Both the position numbers and the translations under genes were made by a program. A DNA stretch of 32,447 nt, from the IMG/VR virus record IMGVR_UViG_2585427783_000005; one strand, given 5' to 3'. Below, piece after piece: positions 5,712 through 10,769 of this stretch; the stretch's first letter is position 1, and each line of letters begins with the position of its first letter. The notes beneath the pieces were generated by a model. The model was not told where the DNA came from, ran no database searches, and saw only the letters and a program-made list of their open reading frames with translations. Source of the stretch: a virus (lineage: Duplodnaviria; Heunggongvirae; Uroviricota; Caudoviricetes).

Positions 5712-7934
5712 TTGGCTGTTCAATTCGCTTATCCGTGGAACGTCCCACGGTCGGCAATCTCCAGCCCATACCTTACTTATGAGCAACAGCATCGCCGCGA
5801 CCGTATGTTCGCGGCTTTGCTGCATGCAAAAAAGGTGCTTTCTCTCCAGCCCGACTGCGTGCGGTTAGATGTTTATCGCACTGCTGCGGTGCTGGAACAA
5901 AATCAGGGTAGTCAACGAGCCAATGCATTTTTAATCAGCTTCTGCAAAAAGGCATTGCCGCGTCTTGAACTGGTCGCAAAAAAATACGAATGCGCTGGTA
6001 TCAACAGCAAGGTATCAACCGCTGTTTTTGGAAGTCATTTTGATACTCAGCAAATGCAATATCTGTCGTCACGCATGGTTAATATGGTCGCCCGATATAA
6101 CCGTCTCCCGGACATGTCGCGCGCTGATGTTGACCTGTTGGCCGCTGATATTGCTAATTTCATTCGTGGTGAACTTGCCAACATTAATGACCACGGATTC
6201 AGCGAGCTTAAAACGCTGTACACCTGGTATATTCGTGCTGGCTTTATTTCCCTCCAATTCAACGTTATCCCACCACATTGGGAGCGGGTTGAAAAAAAAT
6301 ATGTCGGTGCGGATGAAATCGCACCGGCTATCGCCAAAATGTTTAACGATGGGTGGTGGCGCGGTCGTTTGCGCCGTGTAGCAGCTACGTGGCGCGAACA
6401 CCTGCAAATTGCAGTCGGCAACGTCAGTAAGAAAAAAAACACTTACGCGAGTAAAAACTGCGTGACTGACTGGCGTGAACAAAAGCGCCGCACTCGTGAA
6501 TTTCTCAAAGGTCTGGATCTCGAAGACGAAGACGGCAACCGTATCAGCCTAATTGAAAAATATGATGGCTCAGTTGCTAACCCTGCGATTCGCCGCTGTG
6601 AGCTCATGACCCGCATTCGTGGGTTTGAAAACATCTGTAATGAGCTCGGTTATGTCGGTGAGTTTTACACTCTAACCGCGCCGTCAAAATATCACGCCAC
6701 GACTAAAGCCGGTTACCGTAACAGCAAATGGAGCGGTGCCAGCCCGGCTGACACGCAAAACTATCTAACCGGTATCTGGGCGCGTATCCGTGCCAAACTA
6801 CATCGGGAAGATGTCCGTATTTTCGGTATTCGTGTCGCCGAGCCCCATCACGACGGCACTCCACACTGGCACATGCTGATGTTCATGCTGCCGGAAGATG
6901 TTGAATATGTTCGCTCCATCGTCCGTAAATACGCATGGAAAGAAGACCGCCACGAACTGAAAAGCGATAAATCCCAAAAAGCACGTTTCCACGCGGAGTC
7001 CATTGACCCGGAGAAAGGCAGCGCAACCGGCTATGTTGCTAAATACATTTCAAAAAATATCGACGGTTATGCTCTCGATGGTGAAACCGATGATGAAAGC
7101 GGTGAGCTGCTGAAAGAGACAGCCCCCGCCGTTTCAGCATGGGCTGCGCGCTGGCACATCCGTCAGTTTCAGTTTATTGGTGGTGCGCCGGTGACGGTTT
7201 ACCGTGAGTTGCGTCGCCTCGCTGATACCGAAACCGCGCACGGTCTGAGCGTTGAGTTTGCCGCCGTCCATGATGCCGCCGACGCTGGTGACTGGGCTGG
7301 TTATGTTAATGCTCAGGGTGGGCCGTTTGTCCGTCGCGATGATTTACAGGTGCGCACACTGTATGAACCGCGTACCGAGCTTAATCAGTACGGTGAGGAA
7401 ACGGTATGTATTAAGGGGGTCTACGATTCCTCCATAGGTGCAGGAAGCCCGATTTTAACCCGGCTCACTCAGTGGAAGATTGTTCCGAAGCGTGCTGTTG
7501 ATTTGGCCGTTGACCTTCAGGACGGCAAAGCCGTCCCTCGGAGTTCTGTCAATAACTGTACGGGAAGCGAAAGCGATCCACCGATACTGGATTTAACAAA
7601 ACCACTGAGTCGGCGTGAAAGACGAGAATTGACCAACCGACTCAGGAAGCAAAAGCCAGCAGCACGGCGAAAATTCATCCACGGAACGGATGAGCAAAAC
7701 GCAGCTATAGCTAAAACTATCGATGAGATACATCTGACAACCGGCATTAATATCAGCCGGGGCGAAGCCCTGCACCTGATGGCCGGTGGTAAAAGTTGTT
7801 TTGATGGTAAATGGCTACGCGGAACGGCCAAAGGAGAAATATTTTCCGCAGCACCATCGCATGAGGCTAAAGCTCGGAAAATCCTTAATCGTGTTGCGGC
7901 GATGGCTGAAGCATCAAAACCAATACATGAGTAA
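5712..7934 (+). CDS. A: Rolling-circle replication initiator (P2 gpA family)
   Basis: 740 aa; HHDGTPHWHML and GYVAKYISKNIDGYALDG motifs; apparent TTG start at 5712 after a GGGGG RBS giving MAVQFAYPWNVPR, which resembles the P2 A N-terminus. Confidence 0.9.
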   Translation: MAVQFAYPWNVPRSAISSPYLTYEQQHRRDRMFAALLHAKKVLSLQPDCVRLDVYRTAAVLEQNQGSQRANAFLISFCKKALPRLELVAKKYECAGINSKVSTAVFGSHFDTQQMQYLSSRMVNMVARYNRLPDMSRADVDLLAADIANFIRGELANINDHGFSELKTLYTWYIRAGFISLQFNVIPPHWERVEKKYVGADEIAPAIAKMFNDGWWRGRLRRVAATWREHLQIAVGNVSKKKNTYASKNCVTDWREQKRRTREFLKGLDLEDEDGNRISLIEKYDGSVANPAIRRCELMTRIRGFENICNELGYVGEFYTLTAPSKYHATTKAGYRNSKWSGASPADTQNYLTGIWARIRAKLHREDVRIFGIRVAEPHHDGTPHWHMLMFMLPEDVEYVRSIVRKYAWKEDRHELKSDKSQKARFHAESIDPEKGSATGYVAKYISKNIDGYALDGETDDESGELLKETAPAVSAWAARWHIRQFQFIGGAPVTVYRELRRLADTETAHGLSVEFAAVHDAADAGDWAGYVNAQGGPFVRRDDLQVRTLYEPRTELNQYGEETVCIKGVYDSSIGAGSPILTRLTQWKIVPKRAVDLAVDLQDGKAVPRSSVNNCTGSESDPPILDLTKPLSRRERRELTNRLRKQKPAARRKFIHGTDEQNAAIAKTIDEIHLTTGINISRGEALHLMAGGKSCFDGKWLRGTAKGEIFSAAPSHEAKARKILNRVAAMAEASKPIHE

Positions 7935-8008
7935 TTCATATCCATATCATGCACATACAGCAATCGCTCTATTCGTTTTTTTTCTTCCCATCTTTTGCCA
8001 ATACGTGC

Positions 8009-8028
8009 TACTGTATAAATATACAGTA
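8009..8028 (+). promoter_or_regulatory. LexA (SOS) box overlapping a promoter upstream of the small-ORF/DinI-like operon
   Basis: TACTGTATAAATATACAGTA: CTGT-N8-ACAG, near-perfect palindrome matching the E. coli LexA consensus; TTGCCA -35-like hexamer at 7995-8000. Confidence 0.8.
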
Positions 8029-8233: not shown

Positions 8234-8467
8234 ATGAGAATCAATATCACGTTGGATAAAGAGCAAAAAATTAGTCAGGCAACATTGGATGCACTTGAGG
8301 CTGAACTGTACCGCAATCTTCAACCTATTTACCCAAAGACTGCTATCCGAATTCGCAAGGGCTCCGCTAATGGCGTTGAACTAAGCGGTTTGAAACTGGA
8401 CGAAGATAAAAAACGAGTAATGGAAATCATGCAGCAGGTATGGGAGGACGATAGCTGGCTGCATTAA
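8234..8467 (+). CDS. DinI/Tum-family protein (candidate SOS-induced antirepressor or RecA modulator)
   Basis: 77 aa; MRINITLDKEQKISQATLDALEAELYRNLQPIYP ... EIMQQVWEDDSWLH resembles DinI in length and conserved N- and C-terminal segments; downstream of the LexA box. Confidence 0.75.
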   Translation: MRINITLDKEQKISQATLDALEAELYRNLQPIYPKTAIRIRKGSANGVELSGLKLDEDKKRVMEIMQQVWEDDSWLH

Positions 8468-8469
8468 CA

Positions 8470-8541
8470 AACGCCGCCGGTGCTGAAACTTGCTTTCAGT
8501 GCTGGCGGGGTTGAACAACTCGCACCGCGAGGCGCTAGTTC
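8470..8541 (+). repeat. Copy 1 of ~72-bp direct repeat with internal stem-loop, 3 nt after the DinI-like stop
   Basis: AACGCCGCCGGTGCTGAAACTTGCTTTCAGTGCTGGCGGGGTTGAACAAC...GCGAGGCG; ~85% identical to copy 2. Confidence 0.8.
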
Positions 8542-8662: not shown

Positions 8663-8872
8663 ATGCATCGACTACCGGGCGAAATTCCGCAGCACAAAAC
8701 TAAAAGCATCAAACTGATGGCCATCGTTCATCGTCTGCAGCAGATAATGGTCAATGAGAATTTGACACCCGCCGAGCTGGTCGGGTGTGCCGAAATAGTC
8801 AGGGATAATTACGGCAAGCTGGATAGCATCAGCAAGCCGACACATTACTCACCGCCACCACGTCGACCATAG
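8663..8872 (+). CDS. Hypothetical small protein between the two repeat copies
   Basis: ATG 8663 with GAGGG RBS 7 nt upstream; 69 aa. Confidence 0.55.
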   Translation: MHRLPGEIPQHKTKSIKLMAIVHRLQQIMVNENLTPAELVGCAEIVRDNYGKLDSISKPTHYSPPPRRP

Positions 8873-8874
8873 AT

Positions 8875-8946
8875 AACGCCGCCGGAGCTGAAACTCGCTT
8901 TCAGGTCTGGCGGGGTTGAACAACGAGCTACGCGAGGCGTTAGCCG
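8875..8946 (+). repeat. Copy 2 of ~72-bp direct repeat with internal stem-loop, 3 nt after the 69-aa ORF stop
   Basis: AACGCCGCCGGAGCTGAAACTCGCTTTCAGGTCTGGCGGGGTTGAACAAC...GCGAGGCG; stem preserved by compensatory changes relative to copy 1. Confidence 0.8.
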
Positions 8947-9005: not shown

Positions 9006-9200
9006 ATGCAAAATCCCCTTTCATCGAAAAATGACCCGTTTGCCGATTGGGCAAAGAATCTGACTTTAATGGCTTTAAATAACGACCTGAGCTCTCGCGA
9101 GGTGGAAAGCTACACCGCAAAAATGGTCGGGCAGGCCGGTAAAGATGAGCTATCAGTCGTTATCAAACACCTGTTAAATCACATCAGAATGCGCAAATAA
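9006..9200 (+). CDS. Hypothetical small protein
   Basis: ATG 9006 with GAGG 9 nt upstream; 64 aa (track ORF 8916..9200 starts at a TTG inside repeat copy 2). Confidence 0.4.
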   Translation: MQNPLSSKNDPFADWAKNLTLMALNNDLSSREVESYTAKMVGQAGKDELSVVIKHLLNHIRMRK

Positions 9201-9216
9201 GAGGAACTATATAAAT

Positions 9217-9318
9217 ATGTTATCTCTCGTTTATGAAAATCCGTGGACGACGATTTTTCTGATGATTGTTGCCAGCATGTGCCTCAACAGTGTTATTGGC
9301 GCATTGCGCGGCCATTAA
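9217..9318 (+). CDS. Small hydrophobic peptide (33 aa, single predicted TM helix)
   Basis: ATG 9217 with AAGAGGAA RBS 10 nt upstream; MLSLVYENPWTTIFLMIVASMCLNSVIGALRGH; followed by a strong terminator. Below the ORF-track size cutoff. Confidence 0.45.
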   Translation: MLSLVYENPWTTIFLMIVASMCLNSVIGALRGH

Positions 9319-9336
9319 TCGCGACAAAACCAGACT

Positions 9337-9367
9337 AAAACCGGCACCCTGAATGCCGGTTTTTTTA
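9337..9367 (+). terminator. Rho-independent terminator ending the post-A accessory operon
   Basis: AAAACCGGCA-ccctgaa-TGCCGGTTTT followed by a T-run (TTTTTTTAT). Confidence 0.8.
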
Positions 9368-9526
9368 TGCCATTTTTCCGCGAATTTCCCGTTTTTTAGT
9401 CGTGCATGCATCAGGTGCATGGTTTTGCATGCGTCAGTCTTGCCCGTTCTGTCCGTGCGCCGCCAGAGCTAGCGCGGATCCAGAGTTGTCATGCAACTGC
9501 ATTAAAACCGCCCCATAAAGCGGGCA

Positions 9527-9545
9527 GGCGTGGCGGGGAAAGCAT
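9527..9545. other. cos site (cohesive-end sequence, P2/186 type)
   Basis: GGCGTGGCGGGGAAAGCAT in a ~400-bp GC-rich non-coding interval between the early/accessory region and portal gene Q, where cos lies in P2-family prophages; resembles the P2 19-nt cohesive end as I recall it. Confidence 0.65.
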
Positions 9546-9764: not shown

Positions 9765-10769
9765 CTAATTTACATGTATGTAGAGTTCACCGTCGCCAGA
9801 CCAATCGGGACACTCTAAAACAAGCCCAAACTGCTTGAATATTTCATCAATGATTATTGTTATCTCCCGAAAATCACCAAAACCTGTAATGTGCTGGTCA
9901 TTAAACTTCCCATAAAGATTCTGAAAAGCAATGCCTAATTCTGATAATTGATATCTTATCTTTGAGTTGGATAGTGTAAGGGATAGCTTTGGATCGTATT
10001 CTTTAATATTGATGTTTAGAGAATGGACATAACCCATCGCATAAGCATAAGAGTTGATGATTAGCCTGATACGTTTTTTTACTTCAAGATACATGTCATT
10101 CAGAGAAATATTACCGTACTTATAACCCCAGATGAGTTTTTCAATCTCGTCAGATACTTCATTTACAACAGTGTCAAGATTCTCTAAAAATAAATCGACA
10201 GTTTCTTGAGGGGCAGACCCCGAAGACATGTAATTAGCGAGATATTCAGACCATGCACGCGTGGCTGAGATAAGAAGCGCGCTACCATACTCGTTGACTG
10301 TAAAGTTTTGGGCTAAGCATGTTAGTAAGTTTTTTTCATGTACGTGCACTAATTCATGGTGAATGCGATGGATGACTGCGAGGTATCCTTCTTCTTTCAG
10401 TTTTAAGAAGCTACCATCATTGAAAAGCTCAACAAAAAAATCAATCGATAGCACAAGGGTATATTCTTCATATAGCCCATCATTGCCAATTTTTGTTACT
10501 AACTGCCCGACGGCTGCGCCCTGTTTGCTATTGGTAAATGAACTAGGGGATTTGTGTTGGTAAGAGGATGTTACCTTTTGAAGAGCTTCACTGAAGTTAT
10601 AGGAAACAATCACGCATTTTAATTTGGAGATATCAAGATTGAGATTCTTTGTTAAAGCTCGGATAGCTTCTAGTGTGAAATTACCGATATTATTTGCTTC
10701 TTGCTCAGTAGCGAAACCTTCGAGGGTTATTTTAAAATCAGTTTCCAAAATATTAATCTCCGCGCCCAT
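9765..10769 (-). CDS. AT-rich hypothetical protein with HExxH motif (possible metal-dependent hydrolase); accessory gene between cos and Q
   Basis: 334 aa ORF, ATG at 10767-10769 (revcomp); IHRIHHELVHVHE motif; strongly AT-rich relative to flanking phage genes; no recognisable P2 homolog. Confidence 0.6.
   Translation of the reverse strand: MGAEINILETDFKITLEGFATEQEANNIGNFTLEAIRALTKNLNLDISKLKCVIVSYNFSEALQKVTSSYQHKSPSSFTNSKQGAAVGQLVTKIGNDGLYEEYTLVLSIDFFVELFNDGSFLKLKEEGYLAVIHRIHHELVHVHEKNLLTCLAQNFTVNEYGSALLISATRAWSEYLANYMSSGSAPQETVDLFLENLDTVVNEVSDEIEKLIWGYKYGNISLNDMYLEVKKRIRLIINSYAYAMGYVHSLNINIKEYDPKLSLTLSNSKIRYQLSELGIAFQNLYGKFNDQHITGFGDFREITIIIDEIFKQFGLVLECPDWSGDGELYIHVN

What the first reader, a model, noticed from the sequence alone, without database searches (positions are those of the whole stretch)
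9217..9367. Unannotated 33-codon hydrophobic peptide gene with strong RBS and terminator
ATG 9217 has an AAGAGGAA RBS and encodes MLSLVYENPWTTIFLMIVASMCLNSVIGALRGH, a single TM helix, followed within 20 nt by a near-perfect intrinsic terminator. Small membrane peptides next to defence or accessory loci are often toxins of type I toxin-antitoxin pairs or membrane regulators. It falls below typical ORF-calling thresholds.
Basis: seen in the sequence. Interest (0 to 1): 0.4.

Follow-up and report, generated by a model that had tools for sequence, protein, structure and literature searches.

The report
Conserved 33-residue prophage membrane peptide gene
The 33-codon reading frame is a real, evolutionarily conserved gene for a tiny membrane-spanning peptide, placed last in a DNA-damage-inducible operon at the right end of a 186-like prophage; its function is unknown and nothing supports a toxin-antitoxin pair.

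Summary
ATG 9217 to TAA 9318 encodes MLSLVYENPWTTIFLMIVASMCLNSVIGALRGH. It is preceded by AAGAGGAA and followed 18 nt later by a hairpin plus U-run, which is the homologue of terminator t95b of phage 186.

The window is a 186-like (Peduoviridae) prophage. The ORF is the last cistron after a LexA box/p95 promoter, a Tum-like gene, a DinI-like gene, and 69-aa and 64-aa genes. It lies 310 nt from cos.

Comparison of about 130 related loci shows protein-level selection:
- The ORF is intact in 53 of 62 distinct contexts.
- dN/dS is about 0.24, against 0.22 for the annotated neighbour and 0.40-1.11 in the other five frames.
- There are 77 synonymous changes against 43 ± 5 expected.
- A Shine-Dalgarno site is retained in three unrelated 5' flanks.

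The peptide is predicted as one transmembrane helix. It is accessory: absent from 186 and PSP3, and decayed in prophage remnants.

It is not wholly unannotated. GenBank and UniProt carry it as "uncharacterised protein", and one Klebsiella phage record calls it gp06.

The type I toxin idea fails the testable criteria: no antisense promoter, no known antitoxin RNA, no separate transcription unit, no toxin-family match. Function remains unknown. Interest is modest.

The parts
7985..8028 (+). p95-type promoter (-35 TTCCCA 7985-7990; -10 TACTGT 8009-8014) overlapped by a LexA box TACTGTATAAATATACAGTA (8009-8028)
   Evidence: Read from the sequence. Aligns almost identically with the annotated p95 promoter and LexA site of phage 186.
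8048..8230 (+). 60-aa first gene of the operon (TumA-like position; PHROG 1993, unknown function)
   Evidence: Annotated as a hypothetical protein in E. coli and phage records. Labelled 'UV induction of bacteriophage' in SEN1.
8234..8467 (+). DinI-like (TumB-type) gene
   Evidence: PHROG 189, RecA filament binding protein DinI, E = 3e-30. Annotated as a DinI family protein.
8469..8540 (+). Copy 1 of a ~70-bp hairpin-containing repeat that bounds gene cassettes
8663..8872 (+). 69-aa cassette gene (PHROG 11386, unknown function)
   Evidence: Absent, together with one repeat copy, from the otherwise 99-100% identical prophage of E. coli TW10598.
8866..8938 (+). Copy 2 of the ~70-bp repeat
   Evidence: The same element follows orf97 in phage 186 and directly precedes the small ORF in phage SEN1.
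9006..9200 (+). 64-aa gene (PHROG 2454, unknown function), immediately upstream of the small ORF
   Evidence: dN/dS about 0.22. AF2 gives a three-helix model with pLDDT 69 and no fold match.
9199..9206 (+). Shine-Dalgarno sequence AAGAGGAA of the small ORF, overlapping the upstream stop codon
   Evidence: An SD is kept in 3 different 5' contexts.
9217..9318 (+). 33-codon gene for a single-pass membrane peptide (the finding)
9337..9366 (+). Intrinsic terminator (10-bp stem, 7-nt loop, U7). Homologue of t95b of phage 186. Palindromic A/T flanks make it potentially bidirectional.
   Evidence: Alignment with 186, where t95b is annotated. Placed 20-23 nt after the stop codon in 46 of 53 intact contexts.
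9527..9545 (.). cos cohesive-end sequence GGCGTGGCGGGGAAAGCAT. This is the right end of the mature phage genome, 310 nt from the ORF's ATG.
   Evidence: The linear records of 186, SEN1 and SI22 end at ...AAAG(C/T)GGGCA immediately before it. The ATG-to-cos distance is constant at 294-311 nt in related loci.

Best explanation
The ORF at 9217-9318 is a genuine, translated accessory gene of 186-like (Peduoviridae) prophages. It encodes a 33-residue single-pass inner-membrane peptide. The peptide has a short conserved N-terminal segment (MLSLVYENPW), a TM helix with conserved polar residues (S20, C22, N24, S25, G28) and a 3-residue basic C-terminal tail. By the positive-inside rule the inferred topology is N-out/C-in.

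In this window it is the last cistron of the rightward LexA-controlled p95 ('SOS') operon. The order is promoter/LexA box, Tum-like gene, DinI-like gene, 69-aa gene, 64-aa gene, 33-aa ORF, then the t95b terminator, 160 nt before cos. It should therefore be made when the SOS response or lytic transcription switches the operon on. Translation would be initiated at its own SD, and probably helped by ribosomes terminating 16 nt upstream.

What is shown: the gene structure, the operon context, purifying selection on the amino-acid sequence, and the predicted TM helix.

What is inferred: it acts through helix-helix contact with a membrane partner of the host or of an incoming phage, as a dispensable accessory function. 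Candidates are exclusion of superinfecting phage or modulation of a host membrane protein during induction. The alternative of a non-specific membrane poison is less likely. This functional step is a low-confidence guess, about 0.25.
For: 1. Protein-level selection. Among 43 distinct intact ORF sequences, parsimony on a neighbour-joining tree gives 77 synonymous and 67 non-synonymous changes. dN/dS is about 0.24 and changes per codon position are 42:26:76. The other five frames give 0.40-1.11.
2. Permutation control. A permutation that keeps the mutation spectrum expects 42.8 ± 5.3 synonymous changes, and 0 of 5000 permutations reach 77. The annotated upstream gene gives 0.22 by the same method. 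One lineage has Ser3 TCT changed to AGC.
3. Retention. The ORF is intact with ATG and exactly 33 codons in 53 of 62 distinct contexts, with 31 peptide variants. Hosts include E. coli, Salmonella, Klebsiella, Citrobacter, Lelliottia and Edwardsiella.
4. Ribosome-binding site. An SD is present in three unrelated 5' flanks: AAGAGGAA or AAAAGGAT overlapping the 64-aa gene's stop...AAAAAGAGGATTAGA-ATG in L070...GATAGAGGATAAAA-ATG in L071.
5. Independence from the neighbour. In phage SEN1 the 64-aa gene is deleted, but the SD, ORF and terminator are kept.
6. Not a packaging signal. Phage 186 is viable and has the terminator and pre-cos region but lacks the ORF.
7. Operon context. The LexA box and p95 promoter are nearly identical to those of 186. 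No + strand terminator is predicted between them and the ORF.
8. TM helix. KD19 is 2.09 and AF2 gives a helix over residues 9-32.
9. Locus. It lies in the gpA-gpQ accessory/defence hotspot (PMC9122126). The 186 record annotates orf97, at the equivalent operon position, as blocking 186 infection when expressed from a plasmid.
Against: - There is no expression data of any kind: no Ribo-seq, proteomics or tagging.
- The SD-AUG spacer is long (10 nt) in the commonest context. A few lineages with an intact ORF have a weakened SD, such as AAAATGAT or ATATGGAT.
- The ORF has been lost several times: a 1-nt deletion in a T5 run, ATG changed to ACG/ACA/AGG, stop loss, and TGG changed to TAG. Two complete-looking phage contigs (L039, L040) lack it while keeping the 64-aa gene. 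It is therefore dispensable.
- LexA control is not general for the family. Only 25 of 63 contexts have a LexA box within 1.5 kb. In Edwardsiella the 64-aa/33-aa pair directly follows gene A.
- The family is narrow and matches no characterised protein. The proposed mode of action rests on analogy only.
Confidence: 0.85

Rival explanations
1. Type I toxin-antitoxin. The peptide would be a membrane-depolarising toxin whose translation is held down by an antisense or nearby small RNA. A variant is a TisB/DinQ-like SOS toxin controlled only by LexA.
For: It is small, hydrophobic and single-TM. In this window it lies behind a perfect LexA box, as do the E. coli SOS toxins TisB and DinQ (PMC3567139, PMC13159721). 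It sits in an accessory/defence hotspot (PMC9122126).
Against: - No promoter-like site on the minus strand, or on the + strand, in 9200-9420.
- No Rfam hit to any antitoxin sRNA. The best hit is Thr_leader at 22.8 bits against a gathering score of 55.
- It is not a separate transcription unit: the ATG lies 16 nt after the preceding stop codon.
- No Pfam, NCBIfam or PADLOC match to Hok, Ldr, TisB, Fst or similar families at E up to 10.
- The most conserved part is the N-terminal YENPW motif together with polar TM residues. A merely hydrophobic or amphipathic helix is not what is conserved.
- The 18-nt 3' UTR between stop and terminator is the least conserved stretch.
Confidence: 0.08
2. A chance ORF in DNA that is conserved for non-coding reasons, such as the terminator, cos-proximal packaging signals or an RNA element. 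It would not be translated into a functional peptide.
For: - The whole stretch from the ORF to cos is well conserved, with nearly fixed spacing.
- RefSeq/PGAP does not call the ORF.
- The ORF is disrupted in 9 of 62 contexts.
- A weak terminator-like hairpin lies inside it at 9227-9250.
Against: - The synonymous excess is 6 sd above the spectrum-preserving expectation, and third-position periodicity appears only in this frame.
- Constraint equals that of the annotated neighbour.
- A ribosome-binding site is retained or replaced in unrelated flanks.
- Phage 186 packages without this segment.
- Disruptions sit on terminal branches, and some are in visibly decayed remnants where the terminator is also lost.
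Confidence: 0.05
3. The real gene is the antisense ORF on the minus strand (9220..9420, 66 aa). It is annotated as a CDS in some records: Midge CPTMidge_047 and E. coli S3 RG65_RS24775.
For: It is open in the window and is called by some annotation pipelines.
Against: In that frame dN/dS is 0.62, and the most variable codon position is the first (76:26:42), which is the opposite of a coding pattern. It also reads straight through the terminator hairpin and its A/T tracts.
Confidence: 0.02

Closest known systems
SOS operon of coliphage 186 (p95-tum-t95a-orf97-t95b; Brumby et al. 1996 as cited in PMC5322425; record NC_001317)
   Same: The promoter and LexA box are nearly identical. Both have a Tum/DinI-type gene first. 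Both end at a homologous t95b terminator and share the pre-cos region and cos. Accessory genes sit between tum and t95b.
   Different: 186 carries orf97 (243 aa) in place of the 69-aa, 64-aa and 33-aa genes. The 33-codon ORF is absent from 186, where the ~70-bp repeat abuts t95b directly.
Hypothetical protein gp06 of Klebsiella phage ST147-VIM1phi7.1 (YP_009882563.1) and GenBank/UniProt 'uncharacterised protein' entries (e.g. ELD32690.1, A0A376PRW0_ECOLX)
   Same: True homologues or identical sequences. They are 33 aa and 73-100% identical, occupy the same position after the 64-aa gene and before the terminator and cos.
   Different: They carry no functional annotation. The Klebsiella phage belongs to another genus (Vimunumvirus), and no LexA box was found in the 1.5 kb upstream.
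LexA-controlled small membrane toxins of E. coli (TisB/IstR-1, DinQ/AgrB)
   Same: A peptide of about 30 residues with a single TM helix, whose transcription is repressed by LexA (PMC3567139, PMC13159721).
   Different: Those are separate transcription units with processed, structured mRNAs and dedicated antisense sRNAs, and none of these features was found here. There is no sequence similarity. The conserved polar motif here suggests specific contacts.
Prophage-encoded small inner-membrane accessory proteins that block phage DNA entry (e.g. HK97 gp15, T4 Imm). From my own knowledge, not tested here.
   Same: Short single-pass membrane proteins encoded as dispensable accessory genes of phages. 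This ORF lies in a locus that holds exclusion genes in relatives: P2 old and tin (PMC9122126), and 186 orf97 (record note).
   Different: There is no sequence relationship. Those proteins are larger. No exclusion phenotype is known for this peptide. Expression here is expected on SOS or lytic transcription, not constitutively in the lysogen.

Membership tests
Type I toxin-antitoxin system | Small (<60 aa) hydrophobic peptide with a predicted TM helix | tested here: met
   33 aa; KD19 maximum 2.09 at residues 12-30; AF2 helix over residues 9-32.
Type I toxin-antitoxin system | A cis- or trans-encoded antisense sRNA antitoxin with its own promoter | tested here: not met
   No promoter-like site on either strand in 9200-9420. 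No Rfam antitoxin family and no significant RNA hit. The 3' UTR is the least conserved stretch. Consensus scans are weak tests, so transcript mapping is still needed.
Type I toxin-antitoxin system | Toxin mRNA is its own transcription unit with a regulated, usually long and structured, 5' UTR | tested here: not met
   The ATG lies 16 nt after the stop of the 64-aa gene and the SD overlaps that stop. The ORF is the last cistron of an operon.
Type I toxin-antitoxin system | Sequence membership in a known toxin family (Hok/Gef, Ldr, Ibs, ShoB, TisB, DinQ, Fst, Zor and others) | tested here: not met
   No hit in Pfam, NCBIfam or PADLOC at permissive thresholds, or in PHROGs (E up to 0.1). A search of 1.84 billion representatives found only close orthologues.
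Type I toxin-antitoxin system | Growth arrest or membrane damage on expression, relieved by the RNA | not testable with these tools
   Needs an experiment.
SOS (p95) operon of 186-like phages | LexA box overlapping the -10 of a promoter downstream of gene A, followed by a Tum/DinI-type gene | tested here: met
   TACTGTATAAATATACAGTA at 8009-8028. The alignment to 186 p95 is nearly identical. DinI PHROG 189, E = 3e-30.
SOS (p95) operon of 186-like phages | Operon ends at the t95b terminator just left of cos | tested here: met
   The terminator at 9337-9366 aligns with the annotated t95b of 186 and with the conserved pre-cos region.
SOS (p95) operon of 186-like phages | The small ORF is co-transcribed from p95 (transcript continuity) | tested here: inconclusive
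   No + strand terminator with a U-run is predicted between 8028 and 9217, apart from a weak one inside the ORF. The two ~70-bp hairpin repeats could attenuate transcription. There is no RNA data.
Bona fide protein-coding gene (small protein) | Purifying selection on the encoded amino-acid sequence, specific to this frame | tested here: met
   dN/dS 0.24 against 0.40-1.11 in the other frames. 77 synonymous changes against 42.8 ± 5.3 expected, 0 of 5000 permutations.
Bona fide protein-coding gene (small protein) | Start codon, length and ribosome-binding site conserved across relatives and across different flanks | tested here: met
   53 of 62 contexts have ATG plus 33 codons. An SD is present in three unrelated 5' flanks.
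Bona fide protein-coding gene (small protein) | Direct evidence of translation | not testable with these tools
   No Ribo-seq or proteomics is accessible. A literature search for the peptide string found nothing.
Leader peptide / transcription attenuator (raised by the weak Rfam Thr_leader hit) | Match above the family threshold, and regulated genes downstream of the terminator | tested here: not met
   22.8 bits against a gathering score of 55, E = 0.2. Downstream on the + strand are only cos and convergent minus-strand genes.

The most novel reading that the evidence does not exclude
The peptide is a phage-encoded effector of the SOS/induction programme with no RNA antitoxin. On LexA cleavage it inserts into the inner membrane. 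There it either lowers the proton-motive force (TisB/DinQ-like) or blocks a specific membrane machine, such as the divisome or a phage DNA-entry route. This would tune host physiology or exclude competitors during prophage induction. It would be the first functional assignment for a microprotein family present in thousands of enterobacterial P2/186-like prophages.
Probability: 0.15. Interest if true: 0.6.

Novelty: new member of a known kind. Interest (0 to 1): 0.35.

Why it matters
Small proteins under 50 residues are systematically missed. RefSeq omits this one even though it evolves under the same constraint as its annotated neighbour and occurs on well over a thousand assembled contigs of E. 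coli, Salmonella and Klebsiella.

It lies in the cos-proximal hotspot of P2-like phages, which is being mined for anti-phage systems. In this phage it is also inside the operon that triggers SOS induction. It is therefore a cheap and well-defined candidate for a new membrane-acting accessory function.

If it has no phenotype, it is still a useful positive control for small-ORF callers. It also corrects the spurious antisense CDS annotated in several phage records.

Tried and rejected
The all-representatives search was used instead and found only close orthologues plus one spurious repeat-protein hit.
- PHROGs, Pfam, NCBIfam and PADLOC gave nothing for the peptide. The Pfam DUF883_C hit at E = 0.21 is noise.
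- The only Rfam hits are sub-threshold chance matches on the terminator.
- A structure prediction and two fold searches of the neighbouring 64-aa protein, run in the hope of a functional hint, gave a three-helix model (pLDDT 69) with no match at E below 1.
- A full-text search for the peptide string found no paper.
- I first took the ~70-bp repeats for homologues of the 186 partial terminator t95a. The alignment shows they are not: they match the segment after orf97.
- I considered that lineages in which the upstream operon is replaced by a divergent gene had evolved a private promoter, because a perfect TATAAT lies about 25 nt upstream of the ATG. The scan finds no -35 for it. It instead calls a leftward promoter-like site for the divergent gene, so I do not rely on this.
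- An SD-sequestering hairpin in the MFE fold of the window sequence was not followed up; the commonest homologues carry a different SD (AAAAGGAT).
- Co-variation between peptide variants and 64-aa protein variants was looked for by eye, and they appear reshuffled.
- A leader-peptide/attenuator reading was rejected because nothing lies downstream.

Full report
**What is in the sequence**

- The 64-aa gene stops with TAA at 9198-9200.
- AAGAGGAA lies at 9199-9206.
- ATG is at 9217, followed by 33 sense codons (MLSLVYENPWTTIFLMIVASMCLNSVIGALRGH) and TAA at 9316-9318.
- A hairpin follows with a 10-bp stem (9337-9346/9354-9363), a 7-nt loop and seven U. It folds at -14.2 kcal/mol, better than all 200 shuffles.

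The SD:anti-SD duplex is -6.0 kcal/mol with a 10-nt spacer. That is ordinary, not 'strong', and comparable to the annotated neighbours. An ORF of this length means nothing alone: 89 ORFs of at least 20 aa overlap the surrounding 5 kb.

**Genomic setting**

The window is a P2/186-like prophage (Peduoviridae; the best phage matches are Eganvirus SW9, SI22, SEN1 and PSP3). The layout is:
- Replication gene A ends at 7934.
- A -35/-10 pair and a perfect LexA box (TACTGTATAAATATACAGTA, 8009-8028) follow. They align almost base for base with the annotated p95 promoter and LexA site of phage 186.
- Next come a 60-aa gene, a DinI-like gene (PHROG 189), a 69-aa gene, a 64-aa gene (PHROG 2454), the 33-codon ORF, and the terminator.
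- The terminator aligns with the annotated t95b of 186. The conserved pre-cos region leads to the cohesive-end sequence at 9527-9545, where the linear records of 186 and SEN1 end.

The ORF is therefore the last gene at the right end of the mature phage genome. It lies in the gpA-gpQ cos-proximal hotspot described for P2-like phages (PMC9122126).

**Is it a gene?**

I collected about 130 related loci from viral contigs, metagenomes, GTDB genomes, phage records and NCBI assemblies.
- Retention: of 62 distinct 480-nt contexts, 53 keep ATG plus exactly 33 codons, giving 31 peptide variants.
- Substitution pattern: on a neighbour-joining tree of the 43 distinct intact ORF sequences, parsimony gives 77 synonymous and 67 non-synonymous changes. 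dN/dS is about 0.24 and changes per codon position are 42:26:76. The other five frames give 0.40-1.11 (smaller set).
- Permutation control: re-placing each observed change at a random site with the same source base expects 42.8 ± 5.3 synonymous changes. None of 5000 permutations reaches 77.
- Positive control: the annotated 64-aa gene scores 0.22 by the same procedure.
- One lineage has the Ser3 codon switched from TCT to AGC.

The ribosome-binding site travels with the ORF or is replaced.
- The common flank has AAAAGGAT or AAGAGGAA overlapping the upstream stop.
- Two unrelated flanks have GAGGA 5 nt before the ATG (L070, L071).
- In phage SEN1 the 64-aa gene is cleanly deleted, while the SD, ORF and terminator remain.

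Phage 186, a viable phage, has the terminator and pre-cos region but not the ORF. The conservation is therefore not a packaging constraint.

The antisense ORF that some records annotate (9220..9420 minus) has dN/dS 0.62 with the first codon position most variable, and it reads through the terminator. It is most likely spurious.

**Losses**

The ORF is dispensable.
- It is absent from 186 and PSP3.
- It is missing from the two most divergent contigs, which keep the 64-aa gene (ATG changed to ACG plus stops).
- It is frameshifted in a T5 run in two contigs, which could be sequencing error.
- It is hit by start-codon or stop-codon mutations in a few others.
- In Cronobacter (TGG changed to TAG) and Kluyvera (ATG lost) the terminator is degraded too, and the Kluyvera copies are not in a complete prophage.
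- In Edwardsiella and Lelliottia it is intact, and in one Lelliottia assembly it was called as a 33-aa gene.

**The product**

- Hydropathy peaks at a 19-residue mean of 2.09 over residues 12-30.
- AlphaFold2 without an alignment predicts one helix over residues 9-32, with pLDDT 93-96 in the core.
- Invariant or nearly invariant residues are M1, L2, Y6, N8, P9, W10, T11, T12, F14, S20, C22, N24 and S25.
- The C-terminal tail varies (RGH, RGQ, RNK, RDK) but almost always keeps Arg31.
- The positive-inside rule (general knowledge) suggests N-out/C-in. This is inference.
- The conserved interfacial YENPW motif and the polar residues inside the helix look more like specific helix-helix recognition than non-specific membrane disruption. 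This too is inference.

**Expression logic**

In this window no U-tailed + strand terminator is predicted between the LexA box and the ORF. The simplest reading is co-transcription from p95 on SOS induction.

Two caveats apply.
- Two hairpin-containing ~70-bp repeats (8469-8540, 8866-8938) lie in between and could attenuate transcription.
- SOS control is not a family trait. Only 25 of 63 contexts have a CTGT-N8-ACAG box within 1.5 kb, and in Edwardsiella the 64-aa/33-aa pair follows gene A directly.

The constant feature is position: the last cistron before t95b, 294-311 nt from cos.

**Type I toxin-antitoxin?**

Only the 'small hydrophobic peptide' criterion is met.
- No promoter-like site exists on either strand in 9200-9420.
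- There is no Rfam antitoxin. The best hit is Thr_leader at 22.8 bits against a threshold of 55, driven by the terminator.
- There is no independent transcription unit.
- There is no toxin-family similarity.
- The short 3' UTR is the least conserved segment.

The analogy with the LexA-controlled TisB and DinQ peptides (PMC3567139, PMC13159721) is worth an experiment. As a membership claim it fails.

**What is already known**

The exact peptide is in GenBank and UniProt as an uncharacterised protein, seen on 964 contigs. The commonest variant is seen on at least 1000. Klebsiella phage ST147-VIM1phi7.1 lists the 73%-identical homologue as gp06. No Pfam, PHROG or NCBIfam family covers it, RefSeq omits it in the identical E. 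coli copy, and no paper in the library contains the sequence.

**Verdict**

This is a real, conserved but dispensable microprotein gene of a known general kind: a phage accessory single-pass membrane peptide. It is well defined structurally and unknown functionally. Interest is modest (0.35). It is a clean candidate for small-protein and phage-accessory-gene studies, and it is not a surprise.

Noticed in passing
window 8469-8540 and 8866-8938 (also L098 2044-2115 in phage 186; L044 805-880 in SEN1): A ~70-bp hairpin-containing direct repeat follows the stop codons of successive genes in the SOS operon and bounds a gene cassette. The otherwise 99-100% identical prophage of E. coli TW10598 lacks exactly one repeat-to-repeat unit, i.e. 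one repeat copy plus the 69-aa gene (397 bp). The same element follows orf97 in 186 and directly precedes the small ORF in SEN1. It looks like a recombination or attenuation module for cassette exchange.
   Followed up: partly
window 9765-10769 (minus strand): A 334-aa ORF lies between cos and the portal gene Q, in the P2-type defence hotspot. It matches PHROG 11743 (unknown function) and has no Pfam, NCBIfam or PADLOC hit. It is annotated as two separate CDS in E. coli TW10598. It is a candidate uncharacterised accessory or defence gene.
   Followed up: partly
window 9220-9420 (minus strand): An antisense 66-aa ORF runs through the terminator. Its equivalents are annotated as CDS in phage Midge (CPTMidge_047) and E. 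coli S3 (RG65_RS24775). The substitution pattern in that frame is non-coding (dN/dS 0.62, first position most variable), so these annotations are probably spurious.
   Followed up: yes
window 9395-9500: Several TGCATG-type palindromes (gtgcatgcat, gtgcatgg, ttgcatgcg, catgcaactgcat) sit in the pre-cos region. They are conserved in phage 186 and in a Klebsiella Vimunumvirus. They may be terminase recognition elements.
   Followed up: no
L048, L069, L075, L077, L084, L087 (about 25-120 nt upstream of the small ORF): In lineages where the upstream operon is replaced by a divergent ~190-aa minus-strand gene, a remnant of the 3' end of the 64-aa gene is kept. It has mutated to a perfect TATAAT on the + strand. 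The scan instead calls a leftward TTGATA-16-TACATT (TG immediately before the -10) site there. Which gene, if either, this promoter-like sequence serves is unresolved.
   Followed up: partly
window 9006-9200: The 64-aa gene (PHROG 2454) is widespread in prophages of Enterobacterales: E. coli, Salmonella, Citrobacter, Klebsiella, Kosakonia, Enterobacter, Lelliottia, Kluyvera, Edwardsiella and Cronobacter. It is predicted as a three-helix bundle with no structural or family match.
   Followed up: partly
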